This document shows, piece by piece, positions 6,534-37,858 of a DNA stretch of 64,000 nt. The DNA is from Nonlabens dokdonensis. Its GTDB lineage: Bacteria > Bacteroidota > Bacteroidia > Flavobacteriales > Flavobacteriaceae. Position 1 is the stretch's first letter. Each line of letters starts with the position of its first letter. The stretch covers positions 10,496-74,495 of the forward strand of contig NZ_MAAX01000154.1 in the NCBI RefSeq assembly GCF_002162835.1. Direction: 5' to 3'. The notes beneath the pieces were generated by a model. The model was not told the DNA's origin. It searched no databases and saw only the letters and a program-made list of their open reading frames with translations. The position numbers and the translations under genes are program-made.

Positions 6534-7112
6534 ATGAGTCACCGACACTTTTTAATCTACAAACCTTATAAAATGCTCAGTCAGTTCATGACTAACGATA
6601 GGCATCAAAAAAACAAAAAGTTTTTAGGTGATTTACACGATTTTCCAGGAGGCAGCATGGCAGTAGGAAGACTGGACGAAACCAGTGAAGGATTACTACT
6701 CATCACTACCGACGGCCAACTGAGCAGCCATATCAACAAAAAAGGAAAAGTAGAAAAAGAATACTACGCTCAAGTAGATGGAATCATCACCGAAGAAGCC
6801 GTTCAAAAAATGACCTCTGGAATCGAGATCAGCATTAATGGTAGTTTATATCAAACTAAAGAGTGTAAAGCACAAATTTTAAAAGAGGTTCCCAATCTAC
6901 CAGAAACGCATCAGCGTATTAGAGATGAGCGCCATGGTCCTACTTCTTGGGTTTCTGTAACATTAAAAGAAGGGAAATTTAGACAAGTGCGTAAAATGTG
7001 TGCTGCAGTTGGTTTTCCCGTATTGCGACTGGCTCGTGTACGGATAGGTGATTTTACTCTGGAAAGTTTGGATGACAAAACCGTAAAAGAGGTTACTAAT
7101 CAAATGGATTGA
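6534..7112 (+). CDS. Pseudouridine synthase (RsuA/RluE family)
   Basis: YKPY, GRLD catalytic motif, EGLLLIT, EGKFRQVRKM; ATG 6534 preferred. Confidence 0.92.
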   Translation: MSHRHFLIYKPYKMLSQFMTNDRHQKNKKFLGDLHDFPGGSMAVGRLDETSEGLLLITTDGQLSSHINKKGKVEKEYYAQVDGIITEEAVQKMTSGIEISINGSLYQTKECKAQILKEVPNLPETHQRIRDERHGPTSWVSVTLKEGKFRQVRKMCAAVGFPVLRLARVRIGDFTLESLDDKTVKEVTNQMD

Positions 7113-31100: not shown

Positions 31101-32120
31101 TCACCTTATTTTTTTCTCAAGATCAGTGATTCTCGATTCAATTTTTCTTAAATTTTTAAATAAAACATAGCTTCTATTCCAGTCTCCAAAATCAAATGCT
31201 GGAGAACCTTGAACTATAGCGCCGCTTTTTAATTTCCTTCCTATCCCACTTTGGGCTTGTATTCCTACGTTATCTTCTATTTCTATGTGCCCAGCGATCC
31301 CTACTTGTCCACCTATTCTACAGTTTTTACCAATTTTTGCAGACCCAGCAATACCAGTCTGTGCTGCTATGACTGTATTCTCTCCTATTTCTACATTATG
31401 AGCTACTTGAATCTGGTTATCTAATTTCACCCCAGATTTAATTATAGTACTACCTAAAGTGGCCTTATCTATAGTAGTAAGTGCACCAATATTTACATTA
31501 TCTTCAATAATTACATTACCGGTTTGTGGAATCTTTGAATAACTACCATCTTCTTTAGGAGCGTATCCAAAACCATCTGCACCTATAACGCTACCAGAGT
31601 TGATAGAAACTTGATTACCTATAACAGTATCTGCCATTATTTGTGCTCCAGATTGAATAATACAATTACTCCCGATGGTAACATTATCACCTATAGTTAC
31701 GTTAGGATATATTTTTACATTATCACCTATGCTTACATTTTCTCCTATGTAACTAAATGCTGCCAAATAAAAGTCTGCACCGTAAGAAGCACTATCATGA
31801 ACAAAAGAAGGTTGCTCAATTCCCGTCTTATTATTTTTGGCCATTTGATAATACTCGAGCAACTTTGAAAAAGCAAGGTAAGCGTCTTCCACTCTTATTA
31901 AGGAACAGTCTACATCTTGATCTAAGGTAAAATCTTTATTTATGATAACAGCACTTGCCTTTGTAGTATACAAGTAAGGTGTGTACTTTGCATTAGATAG
32001 AAAACTCAAACTTCCTGATTCACCTTCTTCTATTTTAGAGAGTTTATCAACTTCAATAGATGGGTCACCTACAATGGTTCCGTCTAAGATGTCTGCAATT
32101 TGTTTAATGGTAAATTTCAT
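31101..32120 (-). CDS. lpxD: UDP-3-O-acylglucosamine N-acyltransferase
   Basis: LSFLSNAKY, GADGFG, KLDNQIQVAHNV, GGQVG. Confidence 0.96.
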   Translation of the reverse strand: MKFTIKQIADILDGTIVGDPSIEVDKLSKIEEGESGSLSFLSNAKYTPYLYTTKASAVIINKDFTLDQDVDCSLIRVEDAYLAFSKLLEYYQMAKNNKTGIEQPSFVHDSASYGADFYLAAFSYIGENVSIGDNVKIYPNVTIGDNVTIGSNCIIQSGAQIMADTVIGNQVSINSGSVIGADGFGYAPKEDGSYSKIPQTGNVIIEDNVNIGALTTIDKATLGSTIIKSGVKLDNQIQVAHNVEIGENTVIAAQTGIAGSAKIGKNCRIGGQVGIAGHIEIEDNVGIQAQSGIGRKLKSGAIVQGSPAFDFGDWNRSYVLFKNLRKIESRITDLEKKIR

Positions 32121-32143
32121 TATCGCAAAAGTACTAATTTATA

Positions 32144-33370
32144 TCAATCTTGTAGCTTAGGATAGCAACAGTAATATTTTTTCACTTCTTTGAGCAATGC
32201 TTTGAAGCTATCTTCTTTTCCAGCTTTGATAAGTTCTATCAATTTACCTTTTTTATTAAGTATTTGTATGGGTTTTGCTTTCGCGTAAGCGAGATTAACA
32301 ACATCACCAGAAAAAACAAAATAAGATGCTTCCTGCTCTGTCAATTGATATGATTTCTGGAGTTTTTTCAAGTGTTTATCCACTTTTCTTTGCGGAATAG
32401 GCTTGTCTGAAAATTTAATCTTGAGCAATTGTCTATTTAAAATCATCTTACAAAGCTCGCTTAAGACAAAATCACGATGCGCGCTACCTAGTTTAAGTGT
32501 ATATATAATATCAGAATCGTCTAGGAAAGAAAAGCGTTCTAGATCTTTAGAATCAGCCTCAAAGCTGAAGAAATCTTTATTAAAAAAGTATTTCAAGTTA
32601 TCAGGCAACTTTACTTCTACACCATTATCTAACAGTTCTTTTATACGTTTTATTACGGACTGCAAGAGATGCTCTGCACCTATTCCTGTTTTATGAAGGT
32701 ACACTTGCCAATACATTAAACGACGTCCAGACAAGAAGTTCTCCACGCTATAAAGCCCTTTTTCTTCTACGACTAATTGATCATCTACCACATTGAGCAT
32801 GGTTATTAATCGCTGGCTATTTATGTTACCTTCTGCCACGCCCGTGTAAAAACTGTCTCGTTTCAAGTAATCTAAACGATCCATATCTAACTGGCTAGAA
32901 ATTAATTCTAACATAAACGGACGGTGGTATTCACCTTTGAAAATTTGAATAGCGAGCGTTAAACTACCGTTAAACTTACGATTTAATTCATTCATAAAAT
33001 GACATGAAAGTTGCTCGTGAGTGACGTTTTTAATGATTTGATATTCTAATGCATGAGAAAATGGACCATGCCCTATATCGTGTAGCAGTATAGCCTTATA
33101 AAGCGCGTCTTCTTCATCCTCAGATATTTCAACTAACTTAGATCTAAGTACTTGTACGGCTTTTTGCATTAAATGCATACAGCCTAACGCATGGTGAAAT
33201 CTGGTATGATGAGCACCTGGATAAACTAAGTAGCTTAGACCCATTTGTGTAATCCTACGCAGGCGTTGAAAATAAGGATGTTCTATGATACTAAAAATCT
33301 CTTCTGAAGGAATCGAAATAAAACCGTAGATAGGATCGTTTAATATTTTAAGTTTGTTCTGTTGTTTCAA
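32144..33370 (-). CDS. HD-domain phosphohydrolase (dNTP triphosphohydrolase-like)
   Basis: DPIYG, FQRLRRI.Q, HHTRFHHALG, LHDIGHGPFSH, DRLDYLKRD; TTG start. Confidence 0.92.
   Translation of the reverse strand: MKQQNKLKILNDPIYGFISIPSEEIFSIIEHPYFQRLRRITQMGLSYLVYPGAHHTRFHHALGCMHLMQKAVQVLRSKLVEISEDEEDALYKAILLHDIGHGPFSHALEYQIIKNVTHEQLSCHFMNELNRKFNGSLTLAIQIFKGEYHRPFMLELISSQLDMDRLDYLKRDSFYTGVAEGNINSQRLITMLNVVDDQLVVEEKGLYSVENFLSGRRLMYWQVYLHKTGIGAEHLLQSVIKRIKELLDNGVEVKLPDNLKYFFNKDFFSFEADSKDLERFSFLDDSDIIYTLKLGSAHRDFVLSELCKMILNRQLLKIKFSDKPIPQRKVDKHLKKLQKSYQLTEQEASYFVFSGDVVNLAYAKAKPIQILNKKGKLIELIKAGKEDSFKALLKEVKKYYCCYPKLQD
32276..32291. repeat. 16-bp palindrome variant (in HD gene, AYAKA)
   Basis: TGCTTTCGCGTAAGCG, 2 mismatches. 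Confidence 0.75.
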
Positions 33371-33388
33371 GGGAACAGCATTTTAATA

Positions 33389-33396
33389 CAAATATA
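33389..33396 (-). promoter_or_regulatory. -7 promoter box for the HD/lpx run
   Basis: TATATTTG on minus strand inside the 31-bp divergent gap. Confidence 0.6.
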
Positions 33397-33401
33397 CTGA
33401 T

Positions 33402-34952
33402 ATGGCAGAGATCAAAATACTTTGGGTAGATGATGAAGTGGATTTATTAAAACCTCACATAATTTTTTTAGAGAAAAAAGGTTATAAGATAGATACTAGA
33501 ATAAGCGGTACTGAAGCTCTCGAAGCGATTGAAGAGACTAATTATGACCTGATTTTTTTAGATGAAAATATGCCTGGACTTACTGGTCTAGAGACCTTGC
33601 ATGAGATTAAAGAGAAGCAAGCTCAACTACCGGTGATTATGATCACTAAGAGTGAAGAGGAATATATCATGGAAGAAGCAATAGGTTCTAAAATAGCCGA
33701 TTACTTAATTAAACCAGTTAATCCTAATCAAATTTTACTCGCTGTAAAGAAAAATCTAGATCATTCTAGACTTATTAATGATAAAACTATAAGCGATTAC
33801 CAGCGAGAATTTAGAAAGATAGCTATGGACATGTCCATGATCAATAGTTATGAAGAATGGGTGCAACTATATCAGAAATTAGTTTATTGGGAAATAGAAC
33901 TAGAAGATGTGGACGACTCTGGTATGTTTGAAATTTTGCAGGCCCAGAAAAATGAAGCAAATCAGCAATTCTGCAAATTTATAGATAGGAACTATCCAGA
34001 GTGGTTTGATGGTGATGAAGACAACCCTATATTAAGTCATAATTTATTTAAGGAAAGAATAGCACCACATTTAAAAAAAGATCAACCTGTACTGTTAGTT
34101 GTCGTAGACAATTTGAGATATGACCAATATAGAGTATTTGAAAATTTGATCAATAATTATTACAAAAAAGTAGAGGAAGAGACCTATTGTTCCATTCTAC
34201 CTACCGCAACACAATATGCGAGAAATGCTTTGTTTTCTGGTCTAATGCCAGAAGACATGAAGAAAAGACATCCTGATTTGTGGCTAGATGACACTGATGA
34301 AGGCGGAAAGAACATGCATGAAAATGCATTTCTAACGGCTCAATTAAAACGACTGAATTTAAATATCACTCATCAATATCATAAGATTACTAATGAAAAC
34401 AAGGGTCGTAAACTAGCTGACAATTTTAAAAGTCAAAAGGACAATGACTTGACGGTTGTGGTATACAATTTTGTAGACATGCTTTCCCATTCTAAAACGG
34501 AAATGGAAGTAATCAAAGAACTAGCCAGCAACGACAAGAGCTACAGATCTTTAACCTTGAGCTGGTTCAAGAACTCTCCACTGTTTGATATTATACAAAA
34601 AGGTCAAGAACTAGGTTTTAAACTTATCCTTACCACTGACCATGGAACTATAAATGTAACTTCACCTAGCAAAGTAATAGGTGATAAAAACACCAGTTTA
34701 AATTTAAGGTATAAAACTGGTAGAAGCTTGTCTTATGAAGATAAGGACGTACTTGCCGCAAAAGATCCTAGTAGTATTAAATTACCAAAGATTAACATGA
34801 GCAGCAGTTTTATTTTTGCTAAAGGAGATTTGTTCTTTGCCTATCCTAATAATTATAACCACTACGTTAGTTACTATAGAAATACTTACCAGCACGGAGG
34901 TGTTTCTTTAGAAGAAATGCTAATACCTTTTGTCATATTTGAACCAAGATAA
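33402..34952 (+). CDS. porX: PorX-type response regulator (REC + PglZ/alkaline-phosphatase domain)
   Basis: ILWVDDE, FLDENMPG, DNLRYDQ, LPTATQYARN, TTDHG, YQHGG. Confidence 0.93.
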   Translation: MAEIKILWVDDEVDLLKPHIIFLEKKGYKIDTRISGTEALEAIEETNYDLIFLDENMPGLTGLETLHEIKEKQAQLPVIMITKSEEEYIMEEAIGSKIADYLIKPVNPNQILLAVKKNLDHSRLINDKTISDYQREFRKIAMDMSMINSYEEWVQLYQKLVYWEIELEDVDDSGMFEILQAQKNEANQQFCKFIDRNYPEWFDGDEDNPILSHNLFKERIAPHLKKDQPVLLVVVDNLRYDQYRVFENLINNYYKKVEEETYCSILPTATQYARNALFSGLMPEDMKKRHPDLWLDDTDEGGKNMHENAFLTAQLKRLNLNITHQYHKITNENKGRKLADNFKSQKDNDLTVVVYNFVDMLSHSKTEMEVIKELASNDKSYRSLTLSWFKNSPLFDIIQKGQELGFKLILTTDHGTINVTSPSKVIGDKNTSLNLRYKTGRSLSYEDKDVLAAKDPSSIKLPKINMSSSFIFAKGDLFFAYPNNYNHYVSYYRNTYQHGGVSLEEMLIPFVIFEPR

Positions 34953-35368
34953 TGGAGTTTACTTATAAATTATCAGAAATAGATAATGCAGCTGCAAAAA
35001 TTCTAGCACATTTAAAATCACAAGTACTATTATTCAATGCTCCCATGGGAGCAGGCAAAACAACCCTGATTAAAGCGCTGTGCCATCAATTAGGTGTTAC
35101 AGATGAGATCACCTCACCTACTTTCAGTCTAGTAAATGAATATAAGGGTAGTAAAGTTGACGTTATGCATTTTGATTTATACAGAATAGAACATACCGAG
35201 CAGCTATACGATATAGGATTTGAAGATTATCTAATAAAAGATGCATTTCAACTAATTGAATGGCCAGAGCTTGCCATGCCTTTTCTATCTGAATATCAGG
35301 AATTAACTATTGAAATTATCGATAGTAGCACAAGAAAACTTAGTTTAAAACCGGTGCAAAAAGATTGA
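34952..35368 (+). CDS. tsaE: tRNA t6A ATPase TsaE
   Basis: APMGAGKTT, SPTFSLVNEY, HFDLYR, LIEWPE. Confidence 0.96.
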   Translation: MEFTYKLSEIDNAAAKILAHLKSQVLLFNAPMGAGKTTLIKALCHQLGVTDEITSPTFSLVNEYKGSKVDVMHFDLYRIEHTEQLYDIGFEDYLIKDAFQLIEWPELAMPFLSEYQELTIEIIDSSTRKLSLKPVQKD

Positions 35369-35525
35369 AATTTTTAACTCCTGAAATGATTACTATACCT
35401 ATTTAGTAGATTTATGTAGTTTAACATACGGTTATAGAATTTCATCGAAAAGGTGAAAAATTACTGCTAAATTTATGGTTGTTGTTTGTAATTTAGTATC
35501 ACTTATTTACTTAAACCCTTTTATT

Positions 35526-35678
35526 ATGAACAACAAATCTATTAAAGCGTTAGCTTTATTGGCTATCTTCGGTGTATCCCTTGCTAGCGCAGCAGTACAA
35601 TTTCAACCAGAAGAAACAAAAACTTCAAAAATTGAAAAGAAATTACTTGCAAAATTTAAGCCACCAGTAACTGGTTAA
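35526..35678 (+). CDS. 50-aa secreted peptide precursor ending KFKPPVTG
   Basis: ATG after an A/T-rich leader; classic n/h/c signal (MNNKSIKALALLAIFGVSLASA); own downstream terminator. Confidence 0.75.
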   Translation: MNNKSIKALALLAIFGVSLASAAVQFQPEETKTSKIEKKLLAKFKPPVTG

Positions 35679-35696
35679 AATAAATTTGATATAATT

Positions 35697-35734
35697 AAAA
35701 AAGCTCACTACATTTACTTGAAGTGAGCTTTTTT
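35697..35734 (+). terminator. Terminator between the peptide gene and the membrane protein gene
   Basis: AAAAAAGCTCACT-N12-AGTGAGCTTTTTT. Confidence 0.75.
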
Positions 35735-35751
35735 CATTCTAAAAATTATCT

Positions 35752-36243
35752 ATGACTACGAGAAGACAGCCTAGTAAAGGAGCCAAAGCATTAGCAATAG
35801 GTAGCGCTGTTGCTGTGATTATGGCAGTTTTACCTTATGCTTTCTATTATTATGAAGCCTTACCTGACTGGTTATGGGATACTAAGTTATTCAATTCTCT
35901 ATCTAAATCTTTTGATGATAATCGACTAATGGCATCGTGGATCCTTTTTCAAAAGTTAGTGCCATTAATTTTATTGATCATTTGGTTCTTGACATGTAAG
36001 CATTGGTGGTACCATGTTATCATAATTCCTATCAGTCTGTACGCTTTTCAACTTTATAACTTGTTTGACTTCTCTTCTACCTATATTGATTCTGGAGAGC
36101 TTTATTTCATAGTTCCAGTTGTGATTATATCACTATCTCTTACTTATCTCGCGCGAATCAAAGTATTTGATCGTATTCATGGTATAGACATAAGTGAGAT
36201 TGAAGACGATATCAAAAAACCAAGTGATCGCTGGTTCAAGTAG
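35752..36243 (+). CDS. Hypothetical multi-TM (about 4) membrane protein
   Basis: Hydrophobic segments; KLVPL...WFLTCKHWWYH..IIP motif. Confidence 0.8.
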   Translation: MTTRRQPSKGAKALAIGSAVAVIMAVLPYAFYYYEALPDWLWDTKLFNSLSKSFDDNRLMASWILFQKLVPLILLIIWFLTCKHWWYHVIIIPISLYAFQLYNLFDFSSTYIDSGELYFIVPVVIISLSLTYLARIKVFDRIHGIDISEIEDDIKKPSDRWFK

Positions 36244-37483: not shown

Positions 37484-37858
37484 ATGAAGTTTATAAAAAG
37501 ACTAGGTTTTTACGGTGGTGGTTTTGCGATAGGTATGGTGTTCTTGATATTTTTTCTAACAGGAAAAAGAACACAATGCACCTGGTTACCTGAAGATCGT
37601 GTTCTAAATGATATACGTAGGAAAAACTTTGTACGCTTCTCTCCAGAAATGCGTACTATGCTAGAAGAAAGAAAAATCGATACTTTAGATATTCAACTTA
37701 TTCTCAAATATGGAAATGTAGATTTTTCAAAATCTAATACAGATACAATTCCTTGTAATTTTTATCATATTTCTGGAAAGAAAGAACTCAAAAACACCTC
37801 ACTTTGGGTTCAAAATTGCGAGCGATACGTAAAAGTCGTGAAAGTCTTAAGTCAATAA
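37484..37858 (+). CDS. DUF4258-like conserved protein
   Basis: RLGFYGGGFAIG TM, WLPEDRVL, LKYGNVDFSKS. Confidence 0.7.
   Translation: MKFIKRLGFYGGGFAIGMVFLIFFLTGKRTQCTWLPEDRVLNDIRRKNFVRFSPEMRTMLEERKIDTLDIQLILKYGNVDFSKSNTDTIPCNFYHISGKKELKNTSLWVQNCERYVKVVKVLSQ

What the first reader, a model, noticed from the sequence alone, without database searches (positions are those of the whole stretch)
35526..36243. Secreted 50-aa peptide plus membrane partner behind porX-tsaE: candidate peptide-signalling module
Seen: signal peptide (about 22-23 aa), a short polar linker and a basic tail IEKKLLAKFKPPVTG ending in Gly. It has its own intergenic promoter region and terminator, followed by a multi-TM protein with a distinctive WFLTCKHWWYH loop. 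Known: Sec-exported propeptides with a short active C-terminus are the design of Phr/RRNPP-type signals in Gram-positives; PorX is linked to T9SS regulation. Inference: an uncharacterised Flavobacteriaceae pheromone or antimicrobial peptide with a receptor, maturation or immunity protein. My recollection is that similar short K-rich ...P-P-x-x-G peptides recur in this family, but I cannot verify that here.
Basis: partly seen in the sequence, partly recalled or inferred. Interest (0 to 1): 0.72.

Follow-up and report, generated by a model that had tools for sequence, protein, structure and literature searches.

The report
Exported mini-peptide with cognate membrane partner
A 50-residue exported peptide and the four-helix membrane protein next to it form an undescribed gene pair found in every marine Flavobacteriaceae locus examined and in temperate phages that infect them, so they very likely work together in the cell envelope, but not as the PorX-linked pheromone system first proposed.

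Summary
A 50-aa ORF (35526-35678) encodes a signal peptide, a polar linker and a basic tail ending in Gly. A hairpin terminator follows, then a 163-aa 4-TM protein with an invariant WFxTCKHWWYH motif.

- All 80 related genome loci, plus two fetched separately, carry a 43-55-aa exported peptide directly upstream of the membrane gene. About 40% have a lipoprotein lipobox. The tail consensus is ..VDKxKIKVPxNG-stop.
- In 55 of 80 loci the two genes overlap by 50-80 nt, always with the membrane gene in the +1 frame.
- The peptide is under purifying selection (dN/dS about 0.27).
- The peptide gene forms tandem arrays of up to 7 copies, and the whole pair duplicates as a unit.
- In one lineage the peptide is a pseudogene and its partner has decayed.

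Neither protein matches Pfam, NCBIfam, PHROGs, PADLOC or a PDB fold.

The same pair also sits between integrase and repressor in the temperate Cellulophaga phage Ingeline and in other viral contigs.

Best reading: a self-contained pair of periplasmic ligand and inner-membrane partner, acting within the cell. Its biological role is unknown; phage exclusion, envelope sensing and signalling all remain open. Nothing found links it to PorX, and the defining RRNPP features that could be tested are not met.

The parts
35468..35475 (+). Possible -7 promoter element (TAAATTTA, a relaxed match to the Bacteroidetes TAnnTTTG box), 50 nt upstream of the peptide ATG
   Evidence: Only a relaxed match in this window. 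A strict TAnnTTTG lies 27-50 nt (60 nt in two loci) upstream of the first peptide ATG in 64 of 79 related loci, against 8.5% of shuffles. The assignment in this window is tentative.
35526..35678 (+). Peptide gene (50 aa plus stop): exported mini-protein
   Evidence: ORF found. Fourteen protein clusters of homologues. An orthologous ORF is present in 80 of 80 related loci. dN/dS is 0.25-0.29 in lineages where it does not overlap the membrane gene. Metatranscriptome contigs cover it.
35526..35591 (+). Signal peptide (residues 1-22, predicted cleavage A-S-A|A)
   Evidence: Read directly from the sequence: Lys-containing n-region, hydrophobic core, Ala at -3 and -1. The N-terminal half is invariant among Nonlabens homologues. 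In other genera the equivalent segment ends in a lipobox Cys in 42 of 97 peptides. No dedicated signal-peptide predictor was available.
35628..35675 (+). Conserved basic C-terminal tail KIEKKLLAKFKPPVTG (net charge +4), ending in Gly directly before the stop codon
   Evidence: Family logo: Pro at position -4 in 87 of 97 peptides, Gly last in 91 of 97, Ile at -7 in 73 of 97. The tail is retained in lineages where it does not overlap the membrane gene. Mean tail charge is +2.3.
35697..35734 (+). Intrinsic-terminator-like hairpin (13-bp stem, 12-nt loop, T-run) between the peptide and membrane genes
   Evidence: Read. My hairpin scan finds an equivalent in all 10 Nonlabens loci, with different stem sequences in different clades. 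RNA contig depth drops after the peptide ORF.
35752..36243 (+). Membrane-partner gene (163 aa, 4 TM, inferred N-in/C-in), founding member of an uncurated family
   Evidence: No Pfam or NCBIfam family above threshold. 1445 clusters at 90% identity and 580 clusters at 50% identity. AF2 pLDDT 80 with 4 TM helices. No PDB fold match at E below 1. Topology is inferred from the positive-inside rule.
35983..36015 (+). Motif WFLTCKHWWYH (residues 78-88) in the short loop between TM2 and TM3, inferred to be cytoplasmic
   Evidence: C82, K83, H84, W85, W86, Y87 and H88 are invariant in 81 orthologues. In distant paralogues and phage copies only W-[FY]-x-[TSN]-x-x-x-W-W-[KRY] is kept, and Cys and His are replaced. 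A catalytic or metal-binding Cys/His role is therefore not a family-wide feature.

Best explanation
The two ORFs form one functional cassette with its own promoter.

**The peptide.** It is exported by Sec. Signal peptidase I cleaves it in Nonlabens; in many other genera a lipobox predicts lipoprotein processing instead. This leaves a mini-protein of about 25-30 residues in the periplasm. The peptide gene is probably expressed well above its partner. The grounds are its own terminator here and tandem arrays of 2-7 gene copies elsewhere; the metatranscriptome contigs fit this only weakly.

**The partner.** It is a 4-TM inner-membrane protein that probably works as a dimer, because many relatives are natural fusions of two or three such units.

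**Proposed mechanism (inferred).** The conserved basic tail (..[VI]-[DE]-K-x-x-I-[KR]-[VI]-P-x-x-G-COOH) docks onto the acidic, aromatic-rich periplasmic loops of its cognate membrane protein. It thereby sets that protein's state within the same cell. This is a periplasmic ligand with an inner-membrane receptor, not a diffusible pheromone.

**Biological role (speculative).** Homologous pairs sit between integrase and repressor in temperate flavobacterial phages. That is where lysogen-expressed exclusion and conversion genes usually lie. My leading guess is therefore that the module guards or gates the inner membrane, for example against phage genome entry, or reports on the state of the envelope.

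**Status of each step.**
- Shown: the genes, their conservation, co-inheritance, overlap, duplication and decay as a unit, and the phage homology.
- Inferred: export, topology, dimerisation and tail-loop contact.
- Speculative: the biological role.
For: **Co-occurrence**
- 80 of 80 genome loci carry at least one peptide ORF directly upstream of the membrane gene, giving 101 peptides. Cellulophaga baltica and Aquimarina loci fetched separately carry it too.

**Physical coupling**
- In 55 of 80 loci the peptide's 3' end overlaps the membrane gene's 5' end by 50-80 nt, most often 59. The membrane gene is in the +1 frame in all 55.
- Within the overlap the peptide frame is the best conserved: entropy 1.70 bits, against 1.99 for the membrane frame and 2.26 for the third frame.

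**The peptide is a real protein**
- dN/dS is 0.25-0.29 where the genes do not overlap. The mature part is more constrained than the signal in the lipoprotein forms.
- The tail logo is conserved.

**Expression**
- A -7 box precedes the first peptide gene in 64 of 79 loci.
- Terminator hairpins are conserved in Nonlabens.
- Arrays of up to 7 near-identical copies have 30-61-nt spacers.
- Metatranscriptome contigs cover the peptide ORF.

**The pair behaves as one unit**
- The whole module is triplicated in Kordia and duplicated in Aequorivita, with the overlap kept in each copy.
- Between these paralogous modules the peptides differ almost only in the tail. The membrane proteins differ most, or close to most, in periplasmic loop 1: 23-50% identity there against 42-85% in the other regions.
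- In one Nonlabens lineage the peptide is a pseudogene. Its partner has lost 12 of 30 residues that are at least 95% conserved. All 81 others keep at least 28 of them.

**Charge complementarity**
- The tail averages +2.3. The two periplasmic loops average -2.7 and -3.75. The correlation is weak (Spearman -0.26, p 0.02, not corrected for phylogeny).

**Dimer inference**
- Many relatives of about 400 aa contain two or three repeats of the unit.
- A natural two-unit fusion folds with pTM 0.68.

**Phage link**
- hhalign of the host family against the phage and paralogue family gives probability 100% and E 2e-39.
- The window protein hits Ingeline gp14 directly (E 1e-8).
- Ingeline gp13 is a 49-aa lipoprotein ending in ..PPPTNG. 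It overlaps gp14, and the pair lies between the integrase and an HTH regulator.
- Two further IMG/VR contigs carry the same pair next to a divergent HTH repressor. Two metagenomic contigs carry it among genes with phage-family (PHROG) matches.
Against: - No direct evidence of binding.
- The invariant CKHWWYH motif is inferred to face the cytoplasm. The most conserved part of the membrane protein is therefore not where the peptide would bind.
- The membrane protein has no recognisable output or enzymatic domain, so what it does after binding is unknown.
- Exclusion genes are normally patchy and fast-evolving. This module is fixed at one core-genome position in every locus examined, which fits a housekeeping envelope function better than defence. 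PADLOC and PHROGs give no hit.
- Anchoring varies between genera: lipidated, soluble, or possibly uncleaved. The location of the mature peptide is not established.
- Paralogues of the membrane protein exist without a peptide gene. These are the double-unit and coiled-coil forms next to an HTH gene.
- Only the best 80 of 200 genome relatives were inspected.
Confidence: 0.55

Rival explanations
1. Peptide signalling. The C-terminal tail is cleaved off and released, and the 4-TM protein senses or imports it. The information then passes to cytoplasmic regulators. In phages this would resemble an arbitrium-like lysis-lysogeny signal; in the host, a kin or density signal.
For: - The design resembles Phr and AimP pro-peptides (from memory): Sec signal, spacer, conserved C-terminal unit.
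- Peptide gene dosage is high: arrays of up to 7 copies, plus a dedicated terminator.
- The tail unit is duplicated in-frame within single peptides in a Maribacter locus (L080) and in viral contig L092, as in multi-core precursors.
- Tails and loop 1 diverge between paralogous modules, like pherotype-receptor pairs.
- Phage copies lie beside HTH repressor and LuxR-type regulator genes. Paralogues and phage copies carry, or are followed by, a cytoplasmic coiled-coil segment.
Against: - The hosts are diderms, and no outer-membrane export route or processing protease is encoded at the locus.
- 42 of 97 host peptides and most or all of the 5 phage peptides have a lipobox (one is unclear), so they would be membrane-anchored.
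- No RRNPP/TPR receptor or kinase is nearby.
- The membrane protein has no known transporter or sensor fold.
- Proximity to phage regulators is expected for any gene in an immunity region.
Confidence: 0.17
2. The peptide is an abundant small structural or regulatory subunit of the envelope. In this reading it resembles MgrB, CydX or KdpF as a small subunit, or the RcsF-IgaA lipoprotein-sensor pair. The pair would serve housekeeping envelope homeostasis, and phages merely borrowed a copy.
For: - The position is fixed among housekeeping genes in every locus examined.
- Purifying selection acts on the peptide.
- Peptide gene dosage is high; contigs from two metatranscriptomes are compatible with higher RNA levels over the peptide.
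- Translational linkage through the overlap is usual for subunits of one complex.
- The membrane protein's periplasmic face is rich in aromatic residues.
Against: - No homology to any known small-subunit system or stress sensor.
- Duplication into diverging cognate pairs, and presence in prophage immunity regions, are unusual for housekeeping subunits.
- One Nonlabens lineage has let both genes decay, so the pair is dispensable there.
Confidence: 0.18
3. The peptide ORF is a cis-acting leader of the SecM/MifM/VemP 'monitoring substrate' type. In this reading ribosome stalling or slow termination at ..P-x-x-G-stop, modulated by export of the nascent chain, controls translation of the overlapping membrane gene. 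The peptide itself would be a by-product.
For: - An N-terminal export signal plus a conserved motif ending exactly at the stop codon, lying directly upstream of or overlapping a membrane-protein gene.
- Fujiwara et al. 2024 (PMC10987492) report Bacteroidota-specific uORFs ending in NSP-stop or NAP-stop, upstream of secA or secDF, that stall in vitro.
Against: - The spacer between signal and C-terminus is only about 20-30 aa. That paper requires more than 30 aa so that the signal emerges from the ribosome during arrest.
- The downstream gene is not a Sec or YidC component.
- Tandem arrays of up to 7 copies, a lipobox in 42 of 97 peptides and a conserved acidic linker (SVADEDxLY) make no sense for a leader.
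- In Nonlabens a terminator separates the two genes.
- In the overlap type, the membrane gene's start codon lies about 59 nt upstream of the presumed stall site, not downstream of it.
Confidence: 0.06
4. A secreted antimicrobial peptide (bacteriocin or microcin) with a membrane immunity protein.
For: - A small cationic amphipathic peptide lies next to a small polytopic membrane protein.
- The pair duplicates as diverging cognate units.
- The precursor gene occurs in multiple copies.
Against: - A fixed position among housekeeping genes in 80 of 80 loci, rather than patchy, mobile distribution.
- Sec or lipoprotein signals instead of a double-glycine leader, and no ABC exporter or modification enzyme at the locus.
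- Lipid anchoring in many genera.
- No route across the outer membrane.
Confidence: 0.04

Closest known systems
Prophage superinfection-exclusion and lysogenic-conversion genes in the integrase-repressor interval (for example Ltp of Streptococcus phage TP-J34, Sie2009 of lactococcal phages, SieA of P22; also the T4 Imm membrane protein plus periplasmic Sp) - recalled from memory
   Same: - The phage homologues (Ingeline gp13/gp14, L091, L092) occupy the same kind of position, beside the repressor and integrase.
- The products are a small lipoprotein and an inner-membrane protein, which are the usual kinds of exclusion factor.
   Different: - No sequence or profile similarity to any phage family or defence model (PHROGs, PADLOC).
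- Exclusion activity is untested.
- The host copy is a fixed core gene pair in every locus examined, which is not how exclusion genes normally behave.
- The obligate two-gene overlapped architecture is not, to my knowledge, a feature of those systems.
Two-component spanins Rz/Rz1 of phage lysis cassettes (from memory)
   Same: - A small, Pro-containing lipoprotein gene and a membrane-protein gene overlap in the +1 frame.
- Both overlapped and separated architectures occur in different lineages.
   Different: - The gene order is reversed: the lipoprotein comes first.
- The partner has 4 TM helices and only short periplasmic loops, not a single-TM protein with a long periplasmic coiled coil.
- The location is the lysogeny region, not next to a holin or endolysin.
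- The host copies are not in phages at all.
Phr/RRNPP pheromones and phage arbitrium AimP-AimR
   Same: - A short Sec-exported pro-peptide of about 40-55 aa whose conserved part is the extreme C-terminus.
- The phage copies lie close to lysis-lysogeny regulators.
   Different: - No TPR receptor is present.
- The hosts are diderms.
- A lipobox occurs in many members.
- The adjacent partner is a 4-TM protein of unknown fold.
- No evidence of processing or release.
SecM/MifM/VemP and the Bacteroidota NSP-stop and NAP-stop uORFs (Fujiwara et al. 2024, PMC10987492)
   Same: - An export signal plus a conserved motif next to the stop codon, immediately upstream of a membrane-protein gene.
   Different: - The peptide is too short for co-translational sensing.
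- The downstream gene is not a Sec or YidC component.
- The peptide gene is multi-copy, often carries a lipobox, and is selected along its whole mature length.
Small-protein regulators and subunits of membrane proteins, and lipoprotein-sensor pairs (MgrB-PhoQ, RcsF-IgaA; from memory)
   Same: - A protein of about 30-50 aa with a periplasmic C-terminal part acts on a polytopic inner-membrane protein within the same cell.
   Different: - No homology.
- The partner here has no kinase or other known output domain.
- The conserved gene overlap, the tandem arrays and the phage copies have no counterpart in those systems.

Membership tests
Phr / RRNPP-type (including arbitrium) peptide signalling | Sec-exported pro-peptide whose C-terminal few residues form the mature signal | tested here: inconclusive
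   A signal peptide and a conserved C-terminal tail are present. Processing and release cannot be tested here.
Phr / RRNPP-type (including arbitrium) peptide signalling | Adjacent cytoplasmic TPR-repeat receptor (Rap, NprR, PlcR, PrgX or AimR) | tested here: not met
   The neighbours are PorX, TsaE, alanine dehydrogenase and a DUF4258 protein. The partner is a 4-TM protein with no Pfam or NCBIfam domain.
Phr / RRNPP-type (including arbitrium) peptide signalling | The peptide is free to leave the cell and be re-imported | tested here: not met
   The hosts are diderm Bacteroidota. 42 of 97 peptides have a lipobox Cys. No exporter or Opp-type gene is at the locus.
Sec/YidC monitoring substrates (SecM, MifM, VemP, Apc/Apd, Bacteroidota NxP-stop uORFs) | uORF directly upstream of a sec or yidC gene | tested here: not met
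   The downstream protein matches no Sec or YidC model.
Sec/YidC monitoring substrates (SecM, MifM, VemP, Apc/Apd, Bacteroidota NxP-stop uORFs) | More than 30 residues between the localisation signal and the conserved C-terminal end (criterion iv of PMC10987492) | tested here: not met
   Peptides are 43-55 aa in total, which leaves about 20-30 residues after the signal.
Sec/YidC monitoring substrates (SecM, MifM, VemP, Apc/Apd, Bacteroidota NxP-stop uORFs) | The C-terminal motif stalls the ribosome | not testable with these tools
   A conserved P-x-x-G-stop exists. Stalling needs in vitro translation or ribosome profiling.
Two-component spanin (Rz/Rz1) | i-spanin: a single N-terminal TM helix with a long periplasmic coiled coil; o-spanin gene embedded in or overlapping the i-spanin's 3' part; located in the lysis cassette | tested here: not met
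   The partner has 4 TM helices and short loops. The lipoprotein gene comes first. The phage copy lies between the integrase and an HTH regulator.
Prophage superinfection-exclusion genes | Encoded in the lysogeny module next to the repressor or integrase | tested here: met
   Met for the phage homologues only: Ingeline gp13/gp14 lie between integrase gp11 and HTH regulator gp16, and L091 and L092 lie beside a divergent HTH repressor. The window copy is chromosomal and sits among housekeeping genes.
Prophage superinfection-exclusion genes | Homology to a described exclusion or defence protein | tested here: not met
   No PHROGs or PADLOC family at E up to 0.01.
Prophage superinfection-exclusion genes | Blocks infection or DNA entry by a superinfecting phage | not testable with these tools
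   This needs plating and DNA-entry assays.
Class II bacteriocin or microcin with immunity protein | Double-glycine or dedicated leader with a cognate ABC exporter; patchy, mobile distribution | tested here: not met
   The peptides carry Sec or lipoprotein signals. No exporter is at the locus. The pair is present at the same position among housekeeping genes in 80 of 80 loci.
Pfam YWFCY (PF14293) / N-terminal domain of Bacteroides MobC | Score above the Pfam gathering threshold | tested here: not met
   15.2 bits against a cut-off of 24.4. Only 2 of 23 family members give even a weak hit.

The most novel reading that the evidence does not exclude
The pair could be a peptide ligand-receptor communication system shared by Flavobacteriaceae and their temperate phages, a Gram-negative counterpart of arbitrium or Phr signalling.
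- The C-terminal tail would be released from an abundant, sometimes lipid-anchored precursor.
- A new class of dimeric 4-TM receptor would read it.
- That receptor would talk to cytoplasmic HTH regulators through a coiled-coil segment.
- Phage copies would let prophages sense, mimic or jam the host signal when deciding between lysogeny and lysis.
Probability: 0.12. Interest if true: 0.9.

Novelty: new variant of a known kind. Interest (0 to 1): 0.64.

Why it matters
Flavobacteriaceae are major degraders of algal biomass in the sea, and their small proteins are almost unstudied.

This finding gives a concrete, testable cassette.
- It is an exported peptide of about 28 residues with a dedicated membrane partner.
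- It is present at one fixed locus in every related genome examined, and it is copied into temperate flavophage immunity regions.
- Neither protein has any annotated relative or known fold.
- The conserved 50-80-nt out-of-frame overlap is an unusual and strongly maintained gene arrangement.

What it would mean depends on the role.
- If the module controls phage entry or lysogeny, it would be a new host-phage interface in an ecologically important group.
- If it senses envelope state or carries a signal, it would be a new type of small-protein and receptor pair in Bacteroidota.

The work also has a practical annotation consequence. At least one of the gene calls seen here missed the peptide gene (L085), and the membrane partner's start was called too far downstream in phage Ingeline (gp14).

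Tried and rejected
- **Curated families.** Pfam, NCBIfam, PHROGs and PADLOC were scanned for both proteins and for ten diverse peptides. Nothing scored above threshold. The only peptide hits were to signal or lipobox regions of unrelated lipoprotein models.
- **YWFCY/MobC lead.** Rejected: 2 of 23 members hit, all below threshold.
- **Fold searches.** The monomer model and a natural two-unit fusion model were compared with the PDB. There was no match at E below 1.
- **Cys/His catalytic or metal site in CKHWWYH.** Weakened. Cys and His are replaced in paralogues and phage copies, and the loop is inferred to be cytoplasmic.
- **Programmed +1 frameshift fusing peptide and membrane protein.** Rejected. 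The membrane gene has its own ATG in nearly all loci. The genes are fully separated in Nonlabens, Galbibacter, Joostella, Robertkochia and Cellulophaga.
- **Tail motif as a by-product of the overlapping membrane frame.** Rejected. The tail is conserved where there is no overlap, and the peptide frame is the better-conserved frame within the overlap.
- **RNA evidence from an isolate.** The Cellulophaga locus was not accepted by the run finder. Only low-depth metatranscriptome contigs were obtained.
- **First IMG/VR scan.** The scan with host-type motifs found nothing. A second scan with a phage-type alignment found 3 contigs.
- **Plasmids.** No match.
- **Literature.** Searches for the module, for PorX-neighbouring genes and for Ingeline gp13/gp14 found no description.
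- **Peptide copy number against number of membrane units per locus.** No consistent proportionality.
Full report
**1. What is in the window**

- The peptide has a typical Sec signal, with cleavage predicted after A-S-A at residue 22. It then has a short polar stretch and a basic tail, KIEKKLLAKFKPPVTG, that ends at the stop codon.
- Between the two genes lies a 13-bp hairpin with a 12-nt loop and a T-run, at 35697-35734. The consensus scan missed it because of the long loop.
- Upstream are PorX (NCBIfam equivalog, 846 bits) and TsaE. Downstream are an alanine dehydrogenase and a DUF4258-like protein.
- Protein hits place the organism in or near Nonlabens, Flavobacteriaceae.
- A six-frame scan of the 64-kb window for short ORFs with the same design returns only this one.

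**2. The peptide is a real gene, conserved well beyond Nonlabens**

- A direct protein search finds only close relatives: 14 clusters, all Nonlabens-like.
- The membrane protein has many more relatives: 82 clusters in the single-sequence search, 1445 with a profile, and 580 clusters at 50% identity in an exhaustive search.
- I fetched 80 genome loci encoding it, from more than 20 genera. The gene order HD-hydrolase, porX, tsaE, gap, membrane gene, ald, DUF4258 is conserved in nearly all of them.
- In every one of the 80 loci the gap holds at least one 40-67-aa ORF, most of them 43-55 aa (101 ORFs, 97 unique). Each has a basic N-terminus and a hydrophobic core. 42 of the 97 have a lipobox Cys.
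- After the signal comes an acidic or polar linker, often SVADEDxLY, and then a tail with consensus Q-A-V-D-K-x-K-I-K-V-P-T-N-G-stop. Pro is at -4 in 87 of 97 and Gly is last in 91 of 97.
- Cellulophaga baltica and Aquimarina loci fetched separately show the same thing. In the Aquimarina record the peptide gene had not been called.
- In lineages where the peptide gene does not overlap anything, pairwise dN/dS is 0.25-0.29. In the lipoprotein forms the mature part is more constrained than the signal.

**3. Gene architecture**

- In 55 of 80 loci the last 50-80 nt of the peptide ORF, most often 59 nt, overlap the start of the membrane gene. The membrane gene is always in the +1 frame, so VPTNG-stop and the membrane protein's LLTGS are written in the same bases.
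- Within the overlap the peptide frame is the most conserved: 1.70 bits, against 1.99 and 2.26. Nucleotide variability peaks at the peptide's third codon positions.
- In Nonlabens, Galbibacter, Joostella, Robertkochia, Spongiivirga, Cellulophaga and one Maribacter the genes are separate, yet the tail is still conserved. The tail is therefore selected for the peptide's own sake.
- All 10 Nonlabens loci have a terminator hairpin between the genes, with clade-specific stem sequences.
- Several genomes carry tandem arrays of the peptide gene: 2, 3, 4 or 7 near-identical copies, 30-61 nt apart, with no terminator between copies.
- A strict Bacteroidetes -7 box lies 27-50 nt (60 nt in two loci) upstream of the first peptide ATG in 64 of 79 loci, against 8.5% of shuffled sequences. 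The cassette is therefore its own transcription unit, not part of a porX-tsaE operon.
- Contigs from two marine metatranscriptomes cover just the peptide ORF of this window, at higher depth than the membrane gene. In a Dokdonia locus an RNA contig spans the overlap. This evidence is thin, because these are assembled contigs at low depth.

**4. The pair behaves as one unit**

- Kordia jejudonensis has three complete peptide-plus-membrane modules in tandem, and Aequorivita has two. Each keeps the overlap.
- Between these paralogous modules the peptides are almost identical up to the tail and differ within it. The membrane proteins differ most, or nearly most, in periplasmic loop 1: 23-50% identity there, against 42-85% in the other regions.
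- A divergent Nonlabens lineage (L086) has only a remnant of the peptide gene. The remnant has no start or signal and contains in-frame stops, but is still recognisable as ..VQFQPQ*TTTAKIKKIVAKFKPLATEEF.
- The membrane protein of that lineage has lost 12 of 30 positions that are at least 95% conserved. Every one of the 81 proteins with an intact partner keeps at least 28.
- Together with the 82 of 82 co-occurrence, this is strong evidence of functional interdependence.

**5. The membrane protein**

- No curated family matches. The weak YWFCY/MobC hit is not reproducible across the family.
- AlphaFold2 gives four TM helices and a structured first periplasmic loop (pLDDT 80). In a natural two-unit fusion the first loop is predicted as a beta-hairpin (pLDDT 73, pTM 0.68).
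- Foldseek finds nothing in the PDB for either model.
- By the positive-inside rule both termini and the WFxTCKHWWYH loop are cytoplasmic. The two periplasmic loops are acidic (-2.7 and -3.75 on average), while the peptide tail is basic (+2.3).
- Many distant relatives are fusions of two or three units, so single-unit proteins probably dimerise.
- In these relatives the Cys and His of the motif are replaced. That argues against a family-wide catalytic or metal site.

**6. The phage connection**

- The contexts of distant single-unit relatives turned out to be phage-like. Their neighbours match PHROG families and a Rha regulator. Each again has an overlapping upstream lipoprotein-type peptide ending in ..PPNG.
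- A translated search of cultured phage genomes hits only Cellulophaga phage Ingeline (Duneviridae; potentially temperate according to PMC8776804).
- Ingeline gp13 is MKKITIYFTAAVILITSASCIKDAGDSEIYHNLNYEPPIDKGVPPPTNG. gp14 is the membrane homologue, and its real ATG overlaps gp13 by 47 nt. The pair lies between integrase gp11 and the HTH regulator gp16.
- Two more IMG/VR contigs show the same order: peptide, membrane protein, a small coiled-coil ORF, then a divergent HTH repressor and cro-like and LuxR-type genes.
- Profile-profile comparison of the host and phage groups gives probability 100% and E 2e-39. The window protein also hits gp14 directly (E 1e-8).
- In several host genera, double-unit or coiled-coil-tailed paralogues plus a similar small HTH gene are inserted between porX and tsaE or beyond the membrane gene. 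These look like remnants of such phage immunity regions, and they lack a peptide gene.

**7. Interpretation**

- Firmly supported: an exported mini-protein and a 4-TM protein form a cognate pair, inherited, duplicated and lost together.
- Inferred: the tail contacts the periplasmic loops. The grounds are charge complementarity, divergence concentrated in the tail and loop 1, and tolerated in-frame duplication of the tail unit (L080, L092).
- Action within the cell is more likely than a diffusible signal. The hosts are diderms, many peptides would be lipid-anchored, and no export route is encoded.
- The phage position suggests a lysogen-expressed function at the membrane, of which superinfection exclusion is the classical example (from memory). 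However, the fixed position of the host copy among housekeeping genes in every locus examined fits a housekeeping envelope role equally well.
- I therefore commit to the ligand and membrane-partner mechanism at 0.55 and treat the biological role as open. The rivals are signalling (0.17), a small structural or regulatory subunit (0.18), an arrest-type leader (0.06) and a bacteriocin with immunity protein (0.04).
- The leader idea fails the spacer-length criterion of PMC10987492. It also cannot explain the arrays, the lipoboxes or the terminator.

**8. Comparison with known systems, and novelty**

- The module is not a member of the Phr/RRNPP, monitoring-substrate, spanin, bacteriocin or YWFCY families. 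For each, at least one defining feature was tested and not met.
- It resembles prophage exclusion or conversion cassettes in location, and small-protein and membrane-protein pairs in logic.
- I found no description of it in the searchable literature.
- I rate it a new variant of a known kind, namely a small exported protein acting on a cognate membrane protein, shared between host and prophage. Neither protein has any annotated relative.

**9. Limits**

- Only the best 80 of 200 genome relatives were examined, and the taxonomic limits are unknown. Whether the genus Flavobacterium has the pair was not determined.
- Export, lipidation, topology, dimerisation and binding are all predictions.
- RNA evidence comes from assembled contigs only.
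- Statistics across loci are not corrected for phylogeny.

Noticed in passing
L081 3001-5863 (Spongiivirga citrea); L011, L012, L013, L016, L019, L033 and L041 between porX and tsaE; L082/L083 1-3609: Paralogues of the membrane protein are inserted at the same chromosomal locus, together with a 118-121-aa HTH protein. The paralogues are double-unit forms of about 400 aa, or forms of about 200 aa with a C-terminal coiled coil (..EYLxKLxxLRxxL). The HTH protein resembles the phage repressor-like genes (Ingeline gp12 and gp16). The set looks like a remnant of a flavophage immunity region and has no peptide gene of its own.
   Followed up: partly
L080 832-1011 (Maribacter sp.); L092 2532-2702 (viral contig): The C-terminal tail unit is duplicated in-frame within a single peptide: ..IDRTKIKVPANG-IDRTKIKVPSAG and ..EKGTPIPKNG-VEKGTPPPGNG. 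This happened independently in a host and in a phage, which suggests the tail is a modular functional unit.
   Followed up: no
L005-L010 (Nonlabens ulvanivorans group): A variant tail lacks the Pro and carries 2-3 extra residues after the Gly (..KKLAVAKANGLL(G), ..RRLQIAKEKGYI). The membrane partner has a correspondingly different loop 1 (..SLGGDAYIT..). The JCM 19298 assembly (L008) has a truncated 40-aa version.
   Followed up: no
L089 7037-7474 (NC_062749.1, gp14); L085 3925-4071: Two annotation problems. Ingeline gp14 is annotated from an internal start; the homology-supported ATG is at locus position 6968, overlapping gp13. The Aquimarina peptide gene is not called at all in the gene calls held for that record. 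Small overlapping genes of this family are likely to be under-annotated.
   Followed up: partly
window 37484-37858: A 124-aa protein with an N-terminal hydrophobic segment and a DUF4258 match (26.5 bits, just above the Pfam cut-off) follows the alanine dehydrogenase gene. It keeps this position in nearly all 80 related loci. Its function is unknown.
   Followed up: no
window 31101-35368: The block lpxD (-), HD-domain hydrolase (-), porX (+), tsaE (+) is syntenic across the family. The porX stop and the tsaE start are only 2 nt apart, so porX and tsaE are probably co-transcribed. The peptide and membrane pair has its own promoter.
   Followed up: partly
L091 1594-2190; L092 4264-4851: The Ingeline-like viral contigs encode a LuxR-type HTH protein a few genes downstream of the peptide and membrane module. 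Bartlau et al. (PMC8776804) had suggested that LuxR genes in such phages, together with the integrase, may let them respond to host cell density.
   Followed up: no
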